Source of the DNA: an uncultured Candidatus Saccharibacteria bacterium
GTDB lineage: Bacteria; Patescibacteriota; Minisyncoccia; Phycocordibacterales; JAKAEA01
Assembly (NCBI GenBank): GCA_964577595.1
Contig: CAZNZK010000003.1
Location: forward strand, 4,261 to 68,260
Direction of reading: 5' to 3'
DNA: 64,000 nucleotides
A program made the translations under genes and the position numbers. Within the stretch, counting starts at the first letter, position 1. The number at the start of each line of letters is the position of its first letter. Shown one piece after another: positions 1,666 to 60,214 of the stretch. The notes under the pieces were generated by a model that saw nothing but the letters and a program-made list of their open reading frames with translations, made no database searches and had not been told where the DNA came from.

Positions 1666-2260
1666 AGGTTTTCCAAGCAATACGCACGTGTAGGATAAAT
1701 AAGACAGGGTTTGATACTGCATAACAGTATAAAAAGCAGTATAAGATTCACTTGTTAAACAGGCTAATAACAGGCGATAGCTCGCTGCTGAACAGTGTAA
1801 TAACAGCGTAAAGGCAACCGATTAAAACGGTGAATAATCGGTTAGGGAACGGTTTGAACTATCTTCCCAGCTAAACTAGCTAATAACTGGTGCTAAATAG
1901 CGAAATCGACAACGGAAAGGTTACCAAATAAATTGGTGGGTAATTGACTGAGGAACAGGCCAAGAACAGGCATCCGCTGCAACTGCTCATCAGTTAAATA
2001 ACAGTTAAAACCCGTGCCGCACACTTGAATTAAGGTCCTATTTGTGGGACTATTGGCTTACAACTAAATATGGAGAGTAGCCTAAACTAGCAAGCGATTG
2101 CTAGCATGGTGAAAAAGTCAGGACGTGCATAAAGAACCCATCATGGGGTCGCATGTCCTGCCACATCGGGAAACTGGTGTGAGTGGCTCCGGCTACTACC
2201 CGTGGTGGGCTTTTTGTAAGCTTGCTACGGGTATCTATAAGCTAAGTAGCTATAAATACC
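1666..2260. repeat. 600-bp non-coding region with repeated (A/T)AATAACAG / GAACAG motifs and several perfect hairpins; candidate origin/regulatory region or ncRNA
   Basis: No ORF of 60 aa or more on + strand. The 5-mer AACAG occurs 8 times; four copies sit in ...ATAACAG... context. Hairpins include aaccgatta/taatcggtt, ctagcaa/ttgctag and caggacgtgc/gcatgtcctg. A GC-rich stem plus T-run (..cccgtggtgggctttttgt) lies just before the next gene. Confidence 0.4.
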
Positions 2261-3418: not shown

Positions 3419-4168
3419 GTGACGGATATGGCACCTCTTGAACGCCTCAGTCCCAGCAATTTTTTTGCAGTCTGCGATGTTGCTATGGACATAAGAGAGA
3501 AACTACAAATGGTTATTGACAACACCGTTGTTATTCCCGTTATGCGGACAATCATAAGGGGTCAATTTAGTATTCTCCTACCCGCAAAAAGTGTAGAGCT
3601 AGTGGACAATTATTGTGAGCTACGATTGACCGCTATAAATTATATAAAGAGCCAAGGTTGTATTAAGGAAACGATACTACTTCGGTCTCATCAAAGATGG
3701 AGTGATAACATTAAAATAATTGTCGATAAGGACGCCTTTAATAAGTTCTATGACCAATTAATAAAGGTCTATGAAGTTAGGGTTGTTGAGCCAAATAAGA
3801 AACAAAAACAACAAGAACAAGGTGTTGTTTCTGGTCTGGAACAAAGTCCATTGCCCGTAATCTCCTACAATTCAATTACTGGTATGGGAATGACAAACAC
3901 AAAGAAATTTAAATTTAAAGACCCTAAACCTGAGTATAGGTTGTTCAAGCTACTCTTTGAGGGTTTAAACAAAAAAGTGTATCGTTATGATGTTTTAGTT
4001 GCAATTTGTTTTTATGAGGATGGTGAAGACCAAGACCCTGCTCGTCATGGTGCAGAAACTGAAAAAATCAATGATGTGGTCAAAAAAATAAGAGAAAAAA
4101 CTGGCTTAACCAGAACGCAGCTGGTAATTAATGGCGGCAATTTAACTTTGTTGGGTAGCAAACAATAA
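3419..4168 (+). CDS. hypothetical protein (249 aa), Lys-rich C-terminal half, possible DNA-binding/regulatory protein of the island
   Basis: ORF only. Basic C-terminal region (KKFKFKDPKPEYRLFKLLFEGLNKKVYRY). No confident domain assignment. Confidence 0.45.
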   Translation: MTDMAPLERLSPSNFFAVCDVAMDIREKLQMVIDNTVVIPVMRTIIRGQFSILLPAKSVELVDNYCELRLTAINYIKSQGCIKETILLRSHQRWSDNIKIIVDKDAFNKFYDQLIKVYEVRVVEPNKKQKQQEQGVVSGLEQSPLPVISYNSITGMGMTNTKKFKFKDPKPEYRLFKLLFEGLNKKVYRYDVLVAICFYEDGEDQDPARHGAETEKINDVVKKIREKTGLTRTQLVINGGNLTLLGSKQ

Positions 4169-4369
4169 ATCTACCAAAACTACCCCAAACTTACCCCAAA
4201 CCACCCCTAAATTTGATTGCTTGAGAAAGATAGGCTTAATCCAGCCTATTTTTTATTTGGTTAAATCTTGAACGTGATAAGTCTTTTGTTTACTTGGTGG
4301 GTTGTCCAACAGGGCGTTCAAGAACCTGCCAAGTGAAGAGTAGATTTATTAGTTAAGTCTATTTAATTT

Positions 4370-4833: not shown

Positions 4834-6311
4834 CCGACCAGAAAGGTTACGAGGTAGAAAAAGTATTTAGAGATAGCTTCACTGGAAAAGGTGATTTCTT
4901 TGCCCGCCCAGCAATGGCTGAGCTATTGCGCTATCTCGATGCTCATCCTAGAGATTCCTACGTGGTTATTTTTGATGACTTGAAGCGGTTCGCCAGAGAT
5001 GTGGTCTTTCACTGGAAGCTAAAACAAGAATTTAGTTCCCGTGGCATCAAACTCGAATGTCTCAATTTTACCTTTGAAGATACGCCTGAGGGGAGATTCA
5101 TTGAAACAATTATGGCGGGGCAGGGGCAGCTTGAACGTGAACAAAACCGCAGACAGGTGCTGCAGAAAATGAAAGCGAGGTTGGAGGCGGGGTATTGGTG
5201 TTTTCCAGACTTGCCAGAAGGCTACGAGTTTATTAAAAGCCCTGTGCATGGCAAATTACCCGTTCTGGTGCAGCCTAAGGCGGCAATAGTGAAAGAGGCG
5301 CTTGAGAGTTTTGCCTCAGGGAGATTAATGGAGCAGGAGGATGTGCGAAAATTCCTAGAGCAAAAAGATATACGAGACGGTAAGCCCGTTTATCTTGATT
5401 ATGTAAAGAGGATGCTTATGAGAATCTTCTATACGGGCTATATCGAATACCCACTCTGGGAGGTGAGTAGGAGACAGGCTAGACACGAGGCCTTAATTGA
5501 TTCGGCAACATATGACCGCATTCAAGAGCGATTGAATGGCAAAACCACCACTCATACTAAAAATTATCTCAATCCTGATTTTCCACTACGCAGCTTTGTT
5601 CTTTGCTCGACATGTAAACAACCAATGACGGCAAGCTGGAGCACTGGTAGCAACGCCAAATTCGCTTATTACCGCTGTAAAACAAAAGGGTGCATAGAAC
5701 GGAACAAGAGTGTGGCTAAGGGGGTTATAGAGGGTGAGTTTGAGTCAATTCTAGGCAAAATAAATCCAAGCAGTGAAGTTCTGAATCTGACCAAAGCAAT
5801 TATTGCGGATGTGTGGCAGAAGAAAATTGCTAACCGTGTAAATGAGAAGAAAGAAATAGAGCAGAAGATTCAGAGATTGATTTCCGAAAAGGAAAAACTA
5901 GTTGGACTAGCTCTGAGGGCTGCTGACGACGGAGTGAGAATGGCATACGAAGAAAAAATATCGGAAATAGTCGGAATAAGCAGAGTTCTAAATAATTCTC
6001 TAGAGTCCTTTGATAGACATGTCCCAAACGTTGAAACCGCATTGAATATCGTATTCGACTTCTTAAAAAATCCTTTGAAACAATGGCAGAAGGGGAATAT
6101 CCATACCAAAAAGCTAGTTCTAAGACTAGTGTTTGAGCAGAATTTGGCATACAGCCGAAAAACTGGGTTTGAAACTGCTATTTTGTCGCTACCTCTAAGG
6201 GTATTTGGCCTCCCAGAGGCTCAAAAATCGATGCTAGTGGAGATGCGCGGAATCGAACCGCGGTGCAGGAGGGATTCAATGGATGATTCTACAGCGTGTA
6301 GCTGCCTTTGA
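4737..6311 (+). CDS. large serine recombinase / integrase
   Basis: N-terminal resolvase catalytic domain (MQKSLIYCRVSSQRQ..SLESQ). Recombinase domain present. Zinc-ribbon (CSTCKQPM...YYRCKTKGC) and coiled-coil C-terminus. The last about 25 codons are antisense of the tmRNA T-arm (..MRGIEPRC..), i.e. the ORF crosses the attachment junction. Confidence 0.9.
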   Translation: MQKSLIYCRVSSQRQKIEGHGLESQEHRCQQLADQKGYEVEKVFRDSFTGKGDFFARPAMAELLRYLDAHPRDSYVVIFDDLKRFARDVVFHWKLKQEFSSRGIKLECLNFTFEDTPEGRFIETIMAGQGQLEREQNRRQVLQKMKARLEAGYWCFPDLPEGYEFIKSPVHGKLPVLVQPKAAIVKEALESFASGRLMEQEDVRKFLEQKDIRDGKPVYLDYVKRMLMRIFYTGYIEYPLWEVSRRQARHEALIDSATYDRIQERLNGKTTTHTKNYLNPDFPLRSFVLCSTCKQPMTASWSTGSNAKFAYYRCKTKGCIERNKSVAKGVIEGEFESILGKINPSSEVLNLTKAIIADVWQKKIANRVNEKKEIEQKIQRLISEKEKLVGLALRAADDGVRMAYEEKISEIVGISRVLNNSLESFDRHVPNVETALNIVFDFLKNPLKQWQKGNIHTKKLVLRLVFEQNLAYSRKTGFETAILSLPLRVFGLPEAQKSMLVEMRGIEPRCRRDSMDDSTACSCL

Positions 6312-6650
6312 TCGGCGCATCACTTTTTGCAAAGTGGTACCCCATTTAAGCCTTACGGGTAAGAAAGAAGCAAAATTCCCGGAAGGCCGAGTCGCTTATT
6401 TCGGCAGGCGGCGCGACAGGCGCTTGCTATATTCCGAGTATGAGCATCGGGATGTGACTGATCGGACATCAATCACGCGATGTCGCTTAGGCCGTAGCGT
6501 AAGCGAATGCAGGGATCCCCTTAAAATAAGGAGAAGCTACTGCACCAAGTGCGTTTTTGGCACTTAAAAGGTTTGTGGCAGATTAAGGAGTTACCACAGC
6601 TCCACGTCGCTCATCCAAAGAGCAAACTCCTGTCTAGGCCGATCATCCCC
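6238..6650 (-). ncRNA. ssrA: tmRNA (ssrA)
   Basis: On the minus strand: 5' GGGGATGATCGGCCTAGACAGG... and 3' ...CGCGGTTCGATTCCGCGCATCTCCA (T-arm plus acceptor strand pairing with 5' GGGGATG). CCA is not encoded; the next bases are CTA. Adjacent to smpB. A candidate tag frame ends ...AFAYATA-TAA, but this is uncertain without a covariance model. Confidence 0.75.
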
Positions 6651-13233: not shown

Positions 13234-13247
13234 GATTTATATTAGTG

Positions 13248-13321
13248 TCCACCCCCTTGGAGTCGAACCAAGGACCGCCGAGGTATAAGCTCGGTGCTCT
13301 AACCAACTGAGCTAGGGGTGG
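13248..13321 (-). tRNA. tRNA-Ile with anticodon UAU (reads AUA)
   Basis: Hand-folded cloverleaf. Acceptor CCACCCC/GGGGTGG. D-arm GCTCAGTTGGTTAGAGC. Anticodon stem CCGAG/CTCGG with loop CTTATAC (anticodon TAT). T-arm CTTGG-TTCGACT-CCAAG. Discriminator A. CCA not encoded. Confidence 0.7.
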
Positions 13322-51010: not shown

Positions 51011-51051
51011 TATTGCGTTTGCCGCTTTTTCTGGTATAGTATAAACCCCAT

Positions 51052-51125
51052 AGCGGGGTAGTGGAACGGCACCACGTCAGGCTCATAACCTGAAGAAATA
51101 GGTTCAACTCCTGTCCCCGCCACCA
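51052..51125 (+). tRNA. initiator tRNA-fMet (anticodon CAU), CCA encoded
   Basis: Acceptor AGCGGGG/CCCCGCC with an unpaired 1:72 (A.C). U8 and A9 present. D-arm GTGG-AACGGCA-CCAC. Anticodon loop CTCATAA, the initiator-type loop. T-arm ATAGG-TTCAACT-CCTGT. Discriminator A plus CCA. Confidence 0.7.
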
Positions 51126-51198
51126 GATTTTTGGTACTATCACAATAGTTTTTAAATGTCGGAGTAGCTGTCTTGGCAGGGCAGGAAAGGACAAAAAC

Positions 51199-51271
51199 GT
51201 CGGAGTAGCTCAGTTGGTAGAGCACAGGACTCATAAGCCTGGGGTCGTGGGTTCGATCCCCACCTCCGACA
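51199..51271 (+). tRNA. tRNA-Met (CAU anticodon; elongator, or possibly tRNA-Ile2/lysidine type)
   Basis: Acceptor GTCGGAG/CTCCGAC fully paired. D-arm GCTCAGTTGGTAGAGC. Anticodon loop CTCATAA. T-arm GTGGG-TTCGATC-CCCAC. Confidence 0.7.
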
Positions 51272-51284
51272 CATTTGCTTTTTG

Positions 51285-51712
51285 TAAGAAAATAGGGTAT
51301 ATTATCAGTGGGACCGAGGGTTCGGCTGAAATTGTAGGGTATGGATATCCTCCAGCTATTCCCTTCGAATCTGTCCCAGTCGGGTCTACTTTTCATGGAG
51401 GTAGACATGTTCCACTCACTTCTTTCCGTATCAGGCTCCTGTGCAACGCAGGAGGGGACCGCCCGGTCCCAAACGAGTTTCAGTTGCTCCTCAAAACAGG
51501 AGGAACTGAAAGCGGTTCACCGGAATCGCGCACTTCGGATGCGTAAGGCCGCAGAGGGTCGCTCCTCGCGCCTTACTCAACGTTTCGGTGTGCGGATGCC
51601 GGCGGACATGGAAATGTCGGTTGTCGCAACATTCTGACAACTGACACGCCAGGAGGGGGAATAAGGGGGTTTCGTGCAGAATCGATGTGCACGAGACCCC
51701 TATTTTTATGGT
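51285..51712 (+). ncRNA. candidate structured ncRNA (about 430 nt), family unknown; ends in a strong intrinsic terminator
   Basis: No protein-like ORF; the track ORFs here have non-protein composition. Many perfect local helices: ctcctg/caggag, gggacc/ggtccc, tttcagttgctcctc..gaggaactgaaa, gtaaggc..gccttac, gacat-GGAA-atgtc, ggttgtc..gacaacc. Terminal nested hairpin gggggtt-tcgtgca...tgcacga-gacccc is followed by TATTTTTAT. No RNase P P4 or SRP domain IV motifs were seen. Confidence 0.35.
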
Positions 51713-51891
51713 TGATTTTTTTGACACACAGAAGTATGATTTAATTGGGTGGAAAGATTGCGCGCGCAGTCTACTATCCAGGTTTCTTACTAAGGAGAGA
51801 CAGGCATGAGGTCTTCTCTTACTTCACACAATCAGGGGGAGCTTCGTCGCTCCTCTTTCTTTTTGTCAAAAATCTGATATATTTTAAAAAT

Positions 51892-51965
51892 GCGCTCGTG
51901 GTGTAGCCTGGTAGCACGTTCCCCTGTCACGGGAAAGGTCGTGGGTTCAAATCCCATCGAGCGCG
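51892..51965 (+). tRNA. tRNA-Asp (anticodon GUC)
   Basis: Acceptor GCGCTCG/CGAGCGC. Anticodon stem TTCCC/GGGAA with loop CTGTCAC. T-arm GTGGG-TTCAAAT-CCCAT. Discriminator G. Confidence 0.8.
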
Positions 51966-52692: not shown

Positions 52693-53928
52693 ATGAAAAT
52701 TCTGTACATCATTACTCAGGGCGAATGTGGCGGGGCGCAAAAGAACGTTCTTGATTTGGCCATTGGTGCGCGGCAGGCAGGGCATCAAGTGGTTGTGGCT
52801 ACTGGCCGGCAAGATACGGTGGGTAGCCAATGGCTTTTCAATGAATTGCGACCCTTAGGCTTCCGTGGCGCACCCGCTACCCGGCTCGGCGGCCTTCGTC
52901 GCGAGCAATCAATAAAAAACGTACCCGATCTCGTTGTTCTCTCAGCTCTTAGCCGAAGTATTCATCCTCTTCGGGAATTAATCGCATTTTTCCAGATATG
53001 GCGGCTGGTGCGGCGTCTACAACCCGATATTGTTCATTTACATAGCAGTAAAGCGGGAAGCGTTGGGGCGGTGGCCGCCAAACTAGCTTTTACGGGTACA
53101 AAGGTTGTCTACACTGTGCATGGTTTTGTTACTGCCGAGCCGCTTTCTTGGCCGGCAAAACTTTTTTATCGTGTTTCCGAATACGTCGCTTCTTTTTTCC
53201 GTGATCTTGTTATTACTGTTTCCGCCCGTGACCTAGAAATCGGTATGAAGGAAAAACTCATTCACAGTCCGAGCGTGGTTATTTATAACGGTCTTGATCA
53301 GGCAAAAAAATCCGACATCCTGCCTTTTTCGCAAGCCCGGGAAGCGCTCGGCCAACTTTTGCCGGAAGGGGTGAGTTTTGCTAGTAACGAGCGGGTCATT
53401 GGTGTTGTGGCTAATCTCTATCCTAGTAAGGGCATTACGCACCTCCTGGATGCTATGGCGCTTTTGCGGCGTAACAGCACGCCCGACGACGATGCGAGGC
53501 AGGTACCCGTTGTTATAATTGGCGACGGCGATTTGCGCTTGGCACTTATAGCTAAAACTGAAGCACTTGGCCTTGCCTCACAGGTTTTCTTTGTTGGCGC
53601 GGTGGACGATGCTTATCGCTATCTTTCCGCTTTTAATCTGATGGTTTTGCCGTCGGTCAAAGAAGGGTTTCCCTATGCACTTTTGGAAGCCTTACTTGCG
53701 GGCAGGCCTTTTATTGCCACTCGTGTGGGCGGTATTCCCGAATTGCTTGATGTGTTGCCGCCCCACGTTGGTCGCTTGGTGCCACCAGGCGATCCGCGCG
53801 CCCTGGCCGCCGCTCTGGCAAAATTTCTGCACGAAACGCCACCTACTGCCGTCCGCTTGCCGGAGCTTTTTAGCCTGGAACACATGCGCGCCTCCACTTT
53901 CGCGGAGTATAAAAAACTGCTGGCATAA
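52693..53928 (+). CDS. GT4-family glycosyltransferase (GT-B)
   Basis: C-terminal EGFPYALLEALLAGRPFIATRVGGIPELL (E-X7-E motif). Confidence 0.8.
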   Translation: MKILYIITQGECGGAQKNVLDLAIGARQAGHQVVVATGRQDTVGSQWLFNELRPLGFRGAPATRLGGLRREQSIKNVPDLVVLSALSRSIHPLRELIAFFQIWRLVRRLQPDIVHLHSSKAGSVGAVAAKLAFTGTKVVYTVHGFVTAEPLSWPAKLFYRVSEYVASFFRDLVITVSARDLEIGMKEKLIHSPSVVIYNGLDQAKKSDILPFSQAREALGQLLPEGVSFASNERVIGVVANLYPSKGITHLLDAMALLRRNSTPDDDARQVPVVIIGDGDLRLALIAKTEALGLASQVFFVGAVDDAYRYLSAFNLMVLPSVKEGFPYALLEALLAGRPFIATRVGGIPELLDVLPPHVGRLVPPGDPRALAAALAKFLHETPPTAVRLPELFSLEHMRASTFAEYKKLLA

Positions 53929-53972
53929 AGAGAAAAAATATATTACTATGCAGGCTTAATAAACAGATTTAT

Positions 53973-54048
53973 TAGTAAACCGCCGTTGTAGCTGTTTTGG
54001 TAGATAGTGCTAGTAAATTGCCGTTGTAGCTGTTTTGGTAGATAGTGC
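53973..54048 (+). repeat. two tandem 38-bp degenerate copies of the 5' half of the downstream tRNA-Thr gene
   Basis: agtaaa(c/t)(c/t)gccgttgtagctgttttggtagatagtgct appears twice, then agtaaattGCCGTTGTAGCTCAGTTGGTAGAGCAC (the real tRNA). The copies replace CTCAGTTGGTAGAGCAC with CTGTTTTGGTAGATAGTGC. Confidence 0.8.
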
Positions 54049-54056
54049 TAGTAAAT

Positions 54057-54132
54057 TGCCGTTGTAGCTCAGTTGGTAGAGCACGTCATTGGTAATGACG
54101 AGGTCGACAGTTCAATCCTGTCCAACGGCTCC
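54057..54132 (+). tRNA. tRNA-Thr (anticodon GGU), CCA encoded
   Basis: Acceptor GCCGTTG/CAACGGC. Anticodon stem CGTCA/TGACG with loop TTGGTAA. T-arm GACAG-TTCAATC-CTGTC. Discriminator T plus CCA. Confidence 0.85.
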
Positions 54133-54168
54133 ACGTCAGCGCATTTTTTATGGTATACTTTTAGTCAT

Positions 54169-55053
54169 ATGCACCCGTCTGAAAACCAGCCTGTCCCTCT
54201 GCCACCCATAGGCCAGCTTGCGCCCGTGGTTGAGCTTGTTGAACGCATGTGGCGTCGTTTCTCGCGTCTCTTTTCCGGCATGTTTCCCTGGATGGTGCTT
54301 TCTTGCATTGGCAGTATTGCTTTAGGAGTAGTGAAGGCGAAAGGCACGCTTCCTGGAACTTTGCCTGTTTGGGTAATTCTTTTAATAGCTCTTGCGGGAG
54401 GCATTATTACTCTTATTTCTTATTTGGCACTTATCAGAATAACGTCGGAAGCGGAAAAGGACCCTAAAGACATTCTTGGTAATGGTCGGGTTTCGCTCAG
54501 GCTTTTTTTCCCATACATCTGGCTCATTATAATTCAAGGCCTCATTCTTTTGGGTGGCTTTATTTTTCTCATTTTTCCCGGCTTCATTTTCAGCATCTAC
54601 ATGACCATTCTGGTTTTTGTGTTCGTGGTTGAGGATAAACGCGGCCTGGATGCTATTACGCGTTCCTGGGGCTATATTGCTGGCCGCTGGTGGGAGACAC
54701 TTTGGCGTATGTTTGTGGCTGTTTTCCTTATGGCCATAGCAACCCTTTTGCTTGGTATTATTCTTTCACTCAGTTTTGGCGGCTCCGCCAACTGGGGCAT
54801 GACCATAATTCAAAACGTCGTGGAAGCGTTCTTTTTTGGTCCTCTTCTACTCTGCTATCTTTTTGAGCTGTATAACGACCTGCGTATCACCAAGCCCGCA
54901 TCTGACGCGGTTGCCGAAAAAACGGCAAAGCTCTGGCTGGTTATTTTCCTGATTATTGGTATTATGCTAGCGCTCCTCATTGCTTTTGGGGCCGTGACGC
55001 AAACGGCCGCTCATGGCTATCGGGAGTTTCCAAGAGTGCATAGTTCTCAATAA
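54169..55053 (+). CDS. hypothetical polytopic membrane protein
   Basis: Track ORF 54073.. begins inside the tRNA. Trimmed to MHPSENQPVPLP... at 54169. At least 6 TM segments. Confidence 0.55.
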   Translation: MHPSENQPVPLPPIGQLAPVVELVERMWRRFSRLFSGMFPWMVLSCIGSIALGVVKAKGTLPGTLPVWVILLIALAGGIITLISYLALIRITSEAEKDPKDILGNGRVSLRLFFPYIWLIIIQGLILLGGFIFLIFPGFIFSIYMTILVFVFVVEDKRGLDAITRSWGYIAGRWWETLWRMFVAVFLMAIATLLLGIILSLSFGGSANWGMTIIQNVVEAFFFGPLLLCYLFELYNDLRITKPASDAVAEKTAKLWLVIFLIIGIMLALLIAFGAVTQTAAHGYREFPRVHSSQ

Positions 55054-55068
55054 TTTTTTAATTTTTAC

Positions 55069-55102
55069 GTCGCCAGCGTAGCTGTTTTGGTAGAATGCAC
55101 TA
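55069..55102 (+). repeat. degenerate copy of the 5' half of the downstream tRNA-Thr(CGU) gene
   Basis: cgccagcgtagctgttttggtagaatgcacta versus the tRNA 5' gccagcgtagctcagttggtagagcac. Same CTCAGTTGG to CTGTTTTGG change as at the other tRNA-Thr locus. Followed by TATATAAT. Confidence 0.75.
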
Positions 55103-55109
55103 TATAATC

Positions 55110-55185
55110 GCCAGCGTAGCTCAGTTGGTAGAGCACCGCTTTCGTAAAGCGGGGGTCGTCGGTTCAATCCCGACCGCTGGCTCCA
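55110..55185 (+). tRNA. tRNA-Thr (anticodon CGU), CCA encoded
   Basis: Acceptor GCCAGCG/CGCTGGC. Anticodon stem CCGCT/AGCGG with loop TTCGTAA. T-arm GTCGG-TTCAATC-CCGAC. Discriminator T plus CCA. Confidence 0.85.
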
Positions 55186-57507: not shown

Positions 57508-58434
57508 ATGTTCTGGACTACCAACAAACGCATCATTAAAGCCGGCTTCGTCAATTTTTGGCGCAATGGTTTTGTATCGCTTTCTTCTATTGTGGTGATG
57601 ACGGTGACATTGCTGGTCATTATCGCTGCGCTTTTTGCCAGCATTATTTTGAATGCAACGCTGACCCAGGTGAAAAGCCAGGTTGATATCACCGTTTATT
57701 TTGTCACGTCTGCCAATGAAAACGACATTTTAGCTTTGCAGAAATCAGTGCAAGCCCTGCCTGAAGTGGCCAGCGCCACCTATATCTCTGCCGATGAAGC
57801 TTTGGCTAATTTTAAGAATCGCCACTCCTCAGATGCCCTTACCCTGCAAGCGCTGGATGAAATCAGCGACAATCCGCTTGGTGCCGAGCTCAATATAAAA
57901 GCCAATGATCCTTCGCAATATGCCGACATTGCCACCTTCCTGCAATCTAAAAGCGTTTCCGCCACCAACGGTTTACCGATAGTTGACACTATCAATTACA
58001 ACCAGAACCAGGCGGCGATTGATAAGCTCACCGAGCTCATTGCCGGCAGTCAGCGTGTGGCATTCATTATTATCATCGGCATGGTTTTGCTCTCCTTGCT
58101 CATTACCTACAACACTATCCGCCTGGCTATTCACGCTTCGCGCGAGGAAATCGCCGTGGAGCGGCTGGTGGGCGCCAGCTCGCGCTTCGTACGCGGGCCG
58201 TTTGTTATTGTTGGCATCATGGCCGGCATTATTTCGGCCATAGCCAGCGCGGCTGTTCTTTTTCCGGCCACCTATTATCTGGGCCGGGCCACCGCCAGCT
58301 TTTTTATAGGCTTTGACGTTTTCCAATACTATCAGGCTAATTTTTCCCAGGTCTTCCTTGTCCTCCTGGCCGGTGGTATTGTTATTGGCGGCATTTCAAG
58401 TTGGCTTGCGGTGCGGCGGTACCTACAAGTGTGA
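57508..58434 (+). CDS. ftsX: cell-division permease FtsX
   Basis: TM1, a large extracytoplasmic loop, and three C-terminal TMs typical of FtsX. Gene order ftsE-ftsX. Confidence 0.8.
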   Translation: MFWTTNKRIIKAGFVNFWRNGFVSLSSIVVMTVTLLVIIAALFASIILNATLTQVKSQVDITVYFVTSANENDILALQKSVQALPEVASATYISADEALANFKNRHSSDALTLQALDEISDNPLGAELNIKANDPSQYADIATFLQSKSVSATNGLPIVDTINYNQNQAAIDKLTELIAGSQRVAFIIIIGMVLLSLLITYNTIRLAIHASREEIAVERLVGASSRFVRGPFVIVGIMAGIISAIASAAVLFPATYYLGRATASFFIGFDVFQYYQANFSQVFLVLLAGGIVIGGISSWLAVRRYLQV

Positions 58435-58442
58435 AAACCTTA

Positions 58443-58477
58443 GCAAGTTTAAAAATCTTAGCAAGTTTAAAATTTTT
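58443..58477 (+). repeat. 16-bp direct repeat CTTAGCAAGTTTAAAA x2 upstream of pyrG
   Basis: ccttagcaagtttaaaaat/cttagcaagtttaaaat, just before the pyrG start. Confidence 0.6.
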
Positions 58478-60171: not shown

Positions 60172-60214
60172 AGAAGCTTGAAATAAAGCTATTTTTACAG
60201 TATCGTAAGGTCAT

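What the first reader, a model, noticed from the sequence alone, without database searches (positions are those of the whole stretch)
53960..55110. Both tRNA-Thr genes are preceded by degenerate copies of their own 5' halves carrying the same D-loop rewrite
Upstream of tRNA-Thr(GGU) there are two tandem 38-bp units. Upstream of tRNA-Thr(CGU) there is one unit. Each reproduces the acceptor/D-arm 5' half of the cognate tRNA, but CTCAGTTGGTAGAGCAC is replaced by CTGTTTTGGTAGA(TAGTGC/ATGCAC). Each unit ends in a -10-like TAGTAAAT / TATATAAT. The shared pattern at two separate loci suggests a functional module rather than random duplication debris. It could be a promoter/leader unit, a tRNA-mimic decoy, or the footprint of a site-specific recombination system using tRNA-Thr.
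Basis: seen in the sequence. Interest (0 to 1): 0.5.

Follow-up and report, generated by a model that had tools for sequence, protein, structure and literature searches.

The report
Self-copy leader repeats before tRNA genes
Several tRNA genes in this Patescibacteria (CPR) genome, and in more than 100 related assemblies, are preceded by one to five short repeats that copy the start of that same tRNA but carry one shared three-base rewrite. The repeats lie inside the transcribed leader rather than acting as the promoter, look selected, and have not been described in anything I could search.

Summary
Each unit copies the cognate flank and positions 1-12 and 16-22, with C13-A14-G15 rewritten to G-T-Y.

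The same module occurs in 63 species genomes, all Patescibacteria/Parcubacteria-group, and in 43 metagenome contigs. It always lies upstream of a tRNA, and only of tRNAs with the TAGCTCAG-type D-arm.

In a scan that left the D-region free, positions 13-22 are 81% conserved against 35% for the following spacer.

A canonical promoter lies upstream of the first unit in 57 of 93 arrays (14.6 expected). Promoters inside units are rare, and T at the -7 position is depleted. The units are therefore leader sequence, not promoters. Their AT-rich ends are the A-T-A-T 5' flank shared by all tRNAs here.

Arrays hold 1-5 units, and copy number differs between otherwise identical contigs, which indicates slippage.

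Best reading: a selected, slippage-maintained pre-tRNA leader module whose acceptor-strand copy competes for the tRNA 3' strand and whose D-arm is inactivated. Its exact role is unproven.

The parts
51132..51140 (+). Extended -10 promoter TGgTACTAT, 17 nt upstream of the Met unit. It places the unit inside the transcript.
   Evidence: It matches the clade consensus TnTGnTAnnnT derived.
51158..51198 (+). 41-nt mimic unit of tRNA-Met(CAU): GTCGGAG TAGCT GTC TTGGCAG GGCAGG... The core lies at 51165-51181.
51199..51272 (+). tRNA-Met(CAU), elongator type, with D-arm TAGCTCAGTTGGTAGAGC.
53921..53949 (+). Probable promoter of the Thr(GGU) transcription unit: -35 TGGCAT at 53921-53926, a 17-nt spacer, and -10 TACTAT at 53944-53949. 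It corresponds in position to the conserved TTGCAA-17-TA(C/G/A)TAT promoter of relatives.
   Evidence: It is a weak match in the window itself (score 8), and the correspondence is inferred from L002, L003, L008, L014 and L060.
53973..53981 (+). Flank TAGTAAACC before unit 1. It resembles the unit end TAGTAAATT and is the residual 5' flank of the ancestral tRNA start.
   Evidence: TRF extends the repeat to 53973.
53982..54019 (+). Mimic unit 1 of tRNA-Thr(GGU), 38 nt. The core UAGCUGUUUUGGUAGAU lies at 53989-54005.
54020..54057 (+). Mimic unit 2 of tRNA-Thr(GGU), identical to unit 1. The core lies at 54027-54043. This unit is absent from the otherwise identical contig L107.
54058..54133 (+). 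tRNA-Thr(GGU), with the 3' CCA encoded.
55072..55109 (+). Mimic unit of tRNA-Thr(CGU), 38 nt. The core lies at 55079-55095.
55088..55096 (+). TGgTAGAAT, a canonical extended -10 box made from the copied D-loop, 13 nt before the tRNA. It is one of the few units with T at the -7 position and may be an auxiliary promoter in this one case.
   Evidence: T at unit position 25 is rare overall: 5 of 64 and 2 of 36.
55110..55185 (+). tRNA-Thr(CGU), with the 3' CCA encoded.

Best explanation
The units are transcribed 5'-leader repeats of the pre-tRNA, not promoters.

**Origin (inferred).** A partial tandem duplication copied the tRNA's immediate 5' flank and roughly its first 22-30 nt. The copy sits between the gene's own promoter and the mature 5' end.

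**Maintenance (shown in part).**
- Slipped-strand or unequal exchange between the copy and the true 5' end expands and contracts the array to 1-5 units.
- Copy number differs between otherwise identical contigs.
- This process keeps overwriting positions -3 to +12 of the proximal unit with the cognate sequence. That is why each unit tracks its own tRNA's acceptor strand.

**Selection (shown).**
- The D-region of the unit is not free to drift. C13-A14-G15 is replaced almost everywhere by G-U-Y, and the 3' D-stem strand is lost.
- The result is a conserved 17-nt core, UAGCUGUYUUGGUAGNU.
- The change removes the C13-G22 pair and the universal tertiary nucleotides A14 and G15.

**Action (inferred).**
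- In the primary transcript, the unit presents a second copy of the RNase P-type flank (A-U-A-U) plus the 5' acceptor strand. This copy can pair with the tRNA's own 3' acceptor strand, much as an external guide sequence does, and competes with the true 5' strand.
- The rewrite stops the copy from building a tRNA-like D-arm or elbow.
- The rewrite also leaves a single-stranded U-rich stretch, G-U|Y-U-U, which fits the RNase E/G-type R-N|W-U-U preference.
- The module would therefore modulate pre-tRNA folding and 5' maturation, with unit number as a slippage-adjustable dial.

The leader position, the selection and the slippage are well supported (about 0.75 on their own). The specific effect on processing is a hypothesis, and the stated confidence is for the whole chain.
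For: **Distribution**
- 63 species-representative genomes carry the module, all from the Patescibacteria/Parcubacteria group. So do 43 metagenome contigs.
- All 158 core-motif hits in 825 kb are followed by a tRNA.
- 93 of 180 TAGCTCAG-type tRNAs carry units, against 0 of 78 tRNAs with other D-arms.

**Tracking of the cognate tRNA**
- Acceptor positions 1-6 equal the cognate in 91-100% of loci across 8 or more isotypes.
- Distal units in arrays lose this identity but keep the core.

**Selection on the core**
- The metagenome scan was unbiased for positions 13 onward. In it G13 is 33 of 36, U14 32 of 36, Y15 32 of 36 and U24 27 of 36.
- Identity over positions 13-22 is 81%, against 35% over 23-32.
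- All three rewritten bases are transversions.

**Leader position, not promoter**
- A canonical promoter lies within 60 nt upstream of the first unit in 57 of 93 arrays. Shuffles give a mean of 14.6 and a maximum of 26.
- A promoter lies inside the last unit or spacer in only 5 of 93, against 10.9 expected.
- Canonical tRNA promoters in this clade end 8-11 nt before +1.

**Flank signature**
- The A-U-A-U flank is shared by real tRNAs and by first units.

**Slippage**
- Array sizes are 46 with one unit, 17 with two, 10 with three, 1 with four and 1 with five.
- Copy number is 1 against 2 units in identical contigs, and 5 against 4 in L071 and L087.

**Competition**
- For the Thr(CGU) precursor, the RNAfold minimum-energy and centroid structures pair the mimic strand with the 3' strand. 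For the Met precursor, the centroid does the same.

**Rare unrewritten units**
- L068 and L074 show that fresh duplications still occur.
Against: - There are no transcript data. Transcription start sites are inferred from consensus promoters only. 32 of 93 arrays have no recognisable upstream promoter, including the window's Thr(CGU).
- No conserved secondary structure or pairing partner was found for the core. The claimed effect on folding rests on thermodynamic prediction for three precursors.
- The RNase E/G-like site is a resemblance recalled from the literature. Whether these genomes encode such an enzyme was not tested.
- 'Disable the D-arm' alone does not explain why G13 and U14 are nearly invariant rather than merely different from C and A.
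- No benefit of carrying the module has been identified.
- The genome scan was ascertained with the motif itself.
Confidence: 0.4

Rival explanations
1. Trans-factor site or small RNA. Under this reading the conserved core UAGCUGUYUUGGUAGNU is the binding or cleavage site of a lineage-specific protein. Alternatively, the units are released as roughly 34-54-nt RNAs resembling tRNA 5' halves that act in trans, for example as a decoy for a factor that recognises the acceptor or D region. The copy of the acceptor strand would then be a by-product of how the units are made.
For: - Distal units keep the core while their acceptor copy decays.
- The core is nearly invariant even though no RNA partner or hairpin explains it.
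- The module is restricted to one bacterial lineage, as expected for a lineage-specific factor.
- Every unit starts with an RNase P-type flank, so discrete unit-length RNAs could be cut out.
Against: - No candidate factor has been identified.
- No conserved neighbouring gene is present. The window neighbours are a GT4 glycosyltransferase, a UPF0259 membrane protein and RF-2.
- The unit lacks a 3' acceptor strand, so it is a poor mimic of a whole tRNA.
- No expression data exist.
Confidence: 0.2
2. Neutral slippage debris. Under this reading the units are non-functional by-products of slippage at tRNA 5' ends in repair-poor genomes. The shared rewrite is inherited or merely tolerated.
For: - Arrays expand and contract on very short time scales.
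- Slippage alone explains the identity of the acceptor copies.
- Rare unrewritten arrays exist (L068 and L074).
Against: - Core positions 13-22 are 81% identical across deeply diverged lineages, while the adjacent spacer is 35%.
- The same three transversions recur in units of 8 or more unrelated isotypes.
- Precise loss by the same slippage should be easy, yet the module persists across candidate phyla.
- Tandem repeats are otherwise rare in the window.
Confidence: 0.15
3. Auxiliary promoter. Under this reading each unit is a promoter built from the tRNA 5' end, and tandem units are tandem promoters.
For: - The copied D-loop supplies TnTGnTA, which is 6 of the 7 specified bases of the clade's extended -10 consensus TnTGnTAnnnT.
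- The rewrite G15 to T creates the upstream T of that consensus.
- The window's Thr(CGU) unit has a complete TGgTAGAAT 13 nt before the tRNA and no other promoter within 90 nt.
Against: - T at the essential -7 position (unit position 25) is depleted: 5 of 64 and 2 of 36, against a background of about 0.32.
- The alternative register, positions 24-29, shows no enrichment of T either.
- Only 5 of 93 arrays have a canonical promoter inside the last unit, fewer than in shuffles.
- Canonical promoters sit upstream of the arrays.
- C13 to G and A14 to T are not promoter-favourable.
- The Met unit in the window has no TA at all.
- The AT-rich unit ends lie 0-1 nt from +1.
Confidence: 0.1
4. Footprint of a site-specific recombination or guide-RNA system. 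This covers an integrase att site or a TIGR/CRISPR-like array.
For: - Partial tRNA copies are classic att remnants (PMC9897764).
- TIGR arrays have 36-nt units and occur in CPR bacteria (PMC12045711).
Against: - The copies are of the 5' end, are directly tandem and enclose no element.
- Units within an array are identical and match only the adjacent tRNA, so there are no variable spacers.
- No integrase or Nop-domain gene is called in the 20 kb around the window's Thr loci.
- There are no hits in viral contigs.
Confidence: 0.03

Closest known systems
Partial tRNA-gene repeats next to tRNA genes, such as the 178-bp repeats downstream of E. coli tyrT that contain the tRNA 3' end (recalled from Egan and Landy 1978, not re-read)
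   Same: These are tandem repeats that include a fragment of the adjacent tRNA gene. They are generated and varied by unequal recombination or slippage.
   Different: The known repeats copy the 3' end and lie downstream. Here the 5' end is copied into the leader. The present case also has a conserved rewritten core, occurs in many isotypes, and is spread across a whole lineage.
tRNA gene fragments left by integrating elements (attL/attR) or captured as CRISPR spacers (PMC9897764)
   Same: A truncated direct repeat of a tRNA gene lies near the intact gene.
   Different: att fragments are usually 3' parts separated from the gene by a kilobase-scale element carrying an integrase. Here the copies are 34-54-bp units of the 5' part, directly abutting the gene, with no element between.
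External guide sequences and leader-3' end pairing in RNase P substrates (Forster and Altman 1990, recalled; PMC9433436, abstract seen)
   Same: A 5' strand paired with a tRNA 3' acceptor strand plus RCCA forms an RNase P substrate. Pairing of the leader with the 3' end is known to alter RNase P binding.
   Different: Here the alternative 5' strand is encoded in cis, is an exact copy of the true strand, and occurs in up to five copies. No cleavage data exist.
Extended -10 (TGn) sigma-70 promoters
   Same: The copied D-loop supplies TnTGnTA, and one unit in the window, at 55088-55096, is a complete match.
   Different: The -7 T is missing, and appears to be avoided, in most units. The real promoters lie upstream of the arrays.
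TIGR arrays (PMC12045711)
   Same: Both are tandem units of about 36 nt with a conserved centre, found in CPR bacteria.
   Different: TIGR units carry variable spacer pairs and sit beside a Tas (Nop-domain) gene. The units here are identical to each other, match only the downstream tRNA, and have no such neighbour.

Membership tests
Sigma-70 extended -10 promoter (clade consensus TnTGnTAnnnT, ending 8-11 nt before tRNA +1) | TG at -15/-14 and TA at -12/-11 | tested here: met
   Unit positions T17, G18, T20 and A21 are inherited from the D-loop. They are present in at least 32 of 36 unbiased units.
Sigma-70 extended -10 promoter (clade consensus TnTGnTAnnnT, ending 8-11 nt before tRNA +1) | T at -7 | tested here: not met
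   Position 25 is T in 5 of 64 units and 2 of 36. It is met only in exceptions such as the window's Thr(CGU) unit.
Sigma-70 extended -10 promoter (clade consensus TnTGnTAnnnT, ending 8-11 nt before tRNA +1) | It is the promoter nearest the gene, with no other promoter upstream | tested here: not met
   57 of 93 arrays have a canonical promoter upstream of the first unit. Only 5 of 93 have one inside the last unit.
Sigma-70 extended -10 promoter (clade consensus TnTGnTAnnnT, ending 8-11 nt before tRNA +1) | Transcription starts about 7 nt downstream of the box | not testable with these tools
   This needs 5'-end mapping.
Integrase att-site tRNA fragment | The fragment and the intact gene flank an integrated element that encodes a recombinase | tested here: not met
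   The units abut the tRNA with a 34-54 nt period. No recombinase gene is called in the 20 kb around the locus.
Integrase att-site tRNA fragment | The duplicated segment is the part of the tRNA that the element replaces, typically the 3' part | tested here: not met
   Positions -3 to +22, the 5' end, are duplicated.
TIGR / CRISPR-like guide array | Units carry variable spacers between conserved repeats | tested here: not met
   Units within an array are identical or nearly so, and their variable part equals the adjacent tRNA's acceptor strand.
TIGR / CRISPR-like guide array | An adjacent Tas (Nop-domain) or cas gene | tested here: not met
   The precomputed Pfam calls for the neighbours in L107 and L108 show none. 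Only this locus was checked.
Pre-tRNA 5' leader element removed by RNase P | It lies between the transcription start and mature +1 on the tRNA strand | tested here: met
   Promoter positions are given. This is inferred from consensus promoters, not from transcripts.
Pre-tRNA 5' leader element removed by RNase P | An RNase P-type cleavage context, with U at -1 and G avoided at -1 | tested here: met
   At -1, T is 62-67% and G is 0-4% before real tRNAs and before first units alike.
Pre-tRNA 5' leader element removed by RNase P | Actual cleavage by RNase P at the unit and tRNA junctions | not testable with these tools
   This needs in vitro processing or RNA 5'-end data.
RNase E/G-type cleavage site (R-N|W-U-U, recalled from the literature) | The sequence motif lies in a single-stranded context | tested here: inconclusive
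   G13-U14|Y15-U16-U17 fits the motif, and no stable local structure was found. When Y15 is C, the W position is violated.
RNase E/G-type cleavage site (R-N|W-U-U, recalled from the literature) | The enzyme is present in these genomes | not tested
   No whole genome was available. The literature search found nothing for Patescibacteria.
Any Rfam family | A covariance-model match | tested here: not met
   No family overlaps the units at the gathering threshold or at E up to 5.

The most novel reading that the evidence does not exclude
The units may be a lineage-wide, self-templating control device for tRNA biogenesis. Each tRNA gene would carry in its leader one to five disabled copies of its own 5' third, kept in register with the gene by slippage. 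These copies would use the tRNA's own 3' strand as a built-in guide for RNase P. They would either gate maturation, with copy number acting as a heritable and rapidly adjustable dial, or be cut out as tRNA-5'-half-like small RNAs recognised through the conserved core by a Patescibacteria-specific factor.
Probability: 0.25. Interest if true: 0.8.

Novelty: new variant of a known kind. Interest (0 to 1): 0.62.

Why it matters
**Cis-element.** If the module acts on pre-tRNA folding or processing, it is a new kind of cis-element. It would be a tRNA leader that mimics its own tRNA, found throughout a large and poorly understood bacterial radiation with minimal genomes.

**Evolution.** It also gives a clean natural example of concerted evolution by slippage. 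Part of a repeat (positions -3 to +12) is kept identical to a functional gene, while an adjacent part (positions 13-24) is held by a different selective constraint.

**Annotation.** The units explain odd tandem repeats and possible tRNA-fragment calls in CPR genome assemblies. The promoter analysis also shows that tRNAs in these genomes are normally made with leaders of only 1-4 nt.

Tried and rejected
- **Units as promoters.** Two -10 registers were tested, at positions 20-25 and 24-29. Neither is enriched for T at -7, and promoters inside units are under-represented.
- **Hairpin between the rewritten GCUGUYUU and the spacer.** Many individual loci fold this way. However, the C/U state of position 15 does not covary with AAGA or AAAA in the spacer (Fisher p = 0.5).
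- **A 'mini acceptor stem' in which the spacer pairs with the copied acceptor strand.** This is striking in L022, L062 and L057, but it is not enriched overall: 26 observed against 24.9 in shuffles.
- **Small hairpin 8-13 / 20-25.** Only U24 is enriched. C at position 23, which would close the G10 pair, is avoided. The hairpin is not supported in the unbiased set.
- **Pairing of the core with the tRNA body or trailer.** It is no better than a shuffled core: -8.97 against -9.02 kcal/mol.
- **Similarity to the tmRNA D-loop analogue, boxA, Chi, sigma-54 or NusG pause motifs.** I inspected these by eye and they do not fit. The window's tmRNA 5' end is unrelated.
- **TIGR array or att site.** Both were rejected on anatomy and neighbourhood.
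- **Phage origin.** There are no hits in viral contigs.
- **Literature.** Six searches found no description of the element.
- **Selection for pairing with the 3' strand.** I inspected by eye the mismatches between units and cognate acceptor strands. They are mostly C-to-T and G-to-A. About half keep wobble pairing, which does not distinguish this from mutation bias.
Full report
**1. The observation.**
- tRNA-Thr(GGU) at 54058-54133 is preceded by two identical 38-bp units at 53982-54019 and 54020-54057.
- tRNA-Thr(CGU) at 55110-55185 is preceded by one 38-bp unit at 55072-55109.
- Each unit repeats its own tRNA's acceptor strand (GCCGTTG or GCCAGCG) and then TAGCT. It replaces C13-A14-G15 with G-T-T, keeps TTGGTAG (positions 16-22), and then diverges.
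- The 13-mer CTGTTTTGGTAGA occurs exactly three times in the window, only at these sites.
tRNA-Met(CAU) at 51199 is preceded by a 41-nt unit at 51158-51198 with its own acceptor strand GTCGGAG and the rewrite G-T-C.
- All three tRNAs share the D-arm TAGCTCAGTTGGTAGAGC. The other five tRNAs in the window have no unit.

**2. Distribution.**
- I scanned one genome per species for unit plus tRNA. This returned 63 loci, every one from a Patescibacteria MAG. The labels include Parcubacteria/Paceibacterota, Nomura-, Zambryskii-, Lloyd- and Taylorbacteria, with some labelled Saccharibacteria. NCBI ranks several of these as separate candidate phyla.
- Units precede Thr(GGU), Thr(CGU), elongator Met, Phe, Ala, Ile(UAU), Lys and Asp.
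- Across 825 kb of fetched DNA there are 158 core-motif hits. All are followed by a tRNA gene, apart from one that is cut by a contig end.
- Units occur before 93 of 180 tRNAs with the TAGCTCAG-type D-arm and before 0 of 78 with other D-arms.
- Viral contigs give no hit. Rfam has no matching family. Six literature searches found no description.
- The window's own locus is present in two independent metagenome assemblies.

**3. What is conserved.**
- The genome scan was ascertained with the motif itself. I therefore used the single metagenome scan on a pattern requiring only a duplicated GCCGTTGTAGCT upstream of tRNA-Thr(GGU), leaving position 13 onward free.
- Among 36 unique units, G13 is present in 33, T14 in 32, a pyrimidine at position 15 in 32, each of positions 16-22 in at least 32, and T24 in 27.
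- Mean pairwise identity is 81% for positions 13-22 and 35% for positions 23-32.
- Three units are not rewritten. L068 has an array of 51-nt units with the native D-arm through position 30. L074 is similar. L093 has a 22-nt hairpin inserted in the D-loop. Duplications therefore still arise, and G-U-Y is the long-lived form.
- All three rewritten bases are transversions. They remove the C13-G22 pair and the universally conserved A14 and G15. The 3' D-stem strand GAGC is also lost.

**4. The units track their tRNA.**
- Acceptor positions 1-6 equal the cognate in 91-100% of loci, although they differ between tRNAs. Identity continues into the flank at 79% at -1 and falls to baseline by about -7.
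- Array sizes are 46 with one unit, 17 with two, 10 with three, 1 with four and 1 with five.
- L052 has units before four consecutive tRNAs, in two or three copies each.
- Copy number is polymorphic. Contig L107 is identical to the window around Thr(GGU) except that it has one unit instead of two, and L108 has two. L071 has five units and L087 has four.
- Slippage in which the nascent tRNA 5' end re-pairs with the upstream copy creates a new unit made of the tRNA's positions -3 to +12 and the old unit's positions 13 onward. This explains, without selection, why the proximal unit always matches its tRNA.
- It also explains why distal units drift in the acceptor part (1.27 mismatches per 7 nt) while keeping the core.

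**5. Promoter or leader?**
- tRNAs without units in these genomes have a clear promoter: cTTG, then 16-17 nt, then TnTGnTAyAtT. The -10 box ends 8-11 nt before mature +1, so leaders are only 1-4 nt.
- The copied D-loop supplies TnTGnTA, but the essential T at -7 (unit position 25) is depleted: 5 of 64 and 2 of 36.
- Among 93 unique arrays, 57 have a good canonical promoter within 60 nt upstream of the first unit. Shuffles give a mean of 14.6 and a maximum of 26.
- Only 5 of the 93 have a canonical promoter inside the last unit or spacer, against 10.9 expected.
- Examples include TTGCAA-17-TA(C/G/A)TAT after a terminator in L003, L008, L014 and L060, and TGnTAnnnT 9 nt before the unit in L023, L057 and L062.
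- In the window, the Met unit has TGgTACTAT at 51132-51140. The Thr(GGU) array has TACTAT at 53944-53949, with TGGCAT as the -35 box.
- The window's Thr(CGU) unit has no upstream promoter within 90 nt. It carries a complete TGgTAGAAT at 55088-55096 and may be an exception.
At -1, T is 67% and G is 2%. The same signature precedes first units. This is the flank expected for an RNase P cleavage site, which is an inference from the known preference of bacterial RNase P for U at -1.

**6. How it may work.**
- Shown: the units lie in the transcribed leader. The core is under purifying selection. The acceptor copy is kept in register by slippage. The rewrite abolishes the capacity to form a D-arm.
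- Predicted: the copied 5' strand competes with the true one for the tRNA's 3' strand. For the Thr(CGU) precursor, the RNAfold minimum-energy and centroid structures use the copy. For the Met precursor, the centroid does so.
- Inferred, step 1: a unit paired with the 3' strand would be an RNase P substrate by external-guide logic.
- Inferred, step 2: the rewrite prevents the copy from nucleating a tRNA-like fold. It leaves a single-stranded G-U|Y-U-U that resembles the RNase E/G preference.
- Inferred, step 3: unit number would then tune maturation.
- Argument for function: precise deletion of a unit by the same slippage should be frequent. Persistence across candidate phyla therefore argues that the module is useful. 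I could not identify the benefit.

**7. Tests that failed.**
- The state of position 15 does not covary with the spacer (p = 0.5).
- Spacer complements to the copied acceptor strand are at chance level.
- The small 8-13 / 20-25 hairpin is supported only by U24.
- The core has no better duplex with the tRNA than a shuffled core does.
- The core is therefore more likely read as a sequence, by a protein or nuclease, than as a structure. This keeps the 'trans-factor site or small RNA' rival alive.

**8. Comparison and verdict.**
- The closest known things are tandem repeats containing tRNA 3' ends (E. coli tyrT, recalled from memory), att-site tRNA fragments (PMC9897764), external guide sequences for RNase P, extended -10 promoters and TIGR arrays (PMC12045711).
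- The element fails the defining features of a promoter, an att site and a TIGR array. It fits a pre-tRNA leader element.
- It is a new variant of known partial-tRNA repeats. It is self-mimicking, lies on the 5' side, carries a conserved rewrite and is spread across a whole lineage. Its function is unknown.
- Interest is moderate to high, and transcript mapping would settle the main question quickly.

Noticed in passing
window 51290-51720 (+): A non-coding stretch of about 430 nt lies between tRNA-Met and tRNA-Asp. It has a promoter-like TATATT near 51299 and a terminator hairpin with a U-run near 51660-51712. It folds far better than shuffles: -186 against -143 +/- 6 kcal/mol, z = -7.1. No Rfam family matches, and the only other copy is in the same organism's contig L107. 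One hairpin loop (CUCCU-CAAAAC-AGGAG) is complementary over 8 nt to the unit core CUGUUUUG. This may be chance, at roughly 0.05.
   Followed up: partly
L001, L006, L015, L026, L027, L029, L048, L055, L058, L069, L070, L084, L089, L090, L098, L104 and others: Many related tRNA-Thr(GGU) genes, and a few others, carry an insertion of 180-260 nt just after the anticodon. ARAGORN calls these introns. Rfam group I intron models do not reach the gathering threshold on them.
   Followed up: partly
window 51035-51052, 51875-51892, 60197-60214; loci: tRNA promoters in this clade place the -10 box only 8-11 nt before the mature 5' end. Primary transcripts should therefore have leaders of about 1-4 nt, which is unusually short for RNase P substrates.
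   Followed up: partly
L068 about 4000-4110; L074; L093: These are arrays of partial tRNA-Thr 5' copies in which the D-arm is not rewritten. L068 has 51-nt units identical to the tRNA through position 30. In L093 the D-arm is instead interrupted by a GC-rich hairpin insertion. They may be younger or alternative forms of the same phenomenon.
   Followed up: partly
window 2079-2197 (+) and 6235-6650 (-): A LOOT RNA (Rfam RF03000, 81 bits) and a tmRNA with tag AKNALGAVASPYFKGIPAFAYATA are present. There is also a tRNA-Ile with anticodon UAU at 13247-13321 (-).
   Followed up: no
window 4170-4207 (+): A tandem AAACTACCCC-like repeat of 3 copies lies directly after the ORF at 3419-4168, in a lower-GC stretch. 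It starts with TCTACCAAAACTA, which is complementary to the unit core with 2 mismatches. This is probably chance.
   Followed up: no
window 58426-58472: An 18-bp tandem repeat, CAAGTTTAAAAATCTTAG, is present in 2.6 copies. It is the only other sizeable tandem repeat in the window.
   Followed up: no
window 54150-54158: A canonical extended -10 box, aTGGTATACT, lies directly after tRNA-Thr(GGU). It probably drives the UPF0259 membrane-protein gene at 54169-55053. That gene has no obvious terminator before the Thr(CGU) unit, so read-through into tRNA-Thr(CGU) is possible.
   Followed up: no
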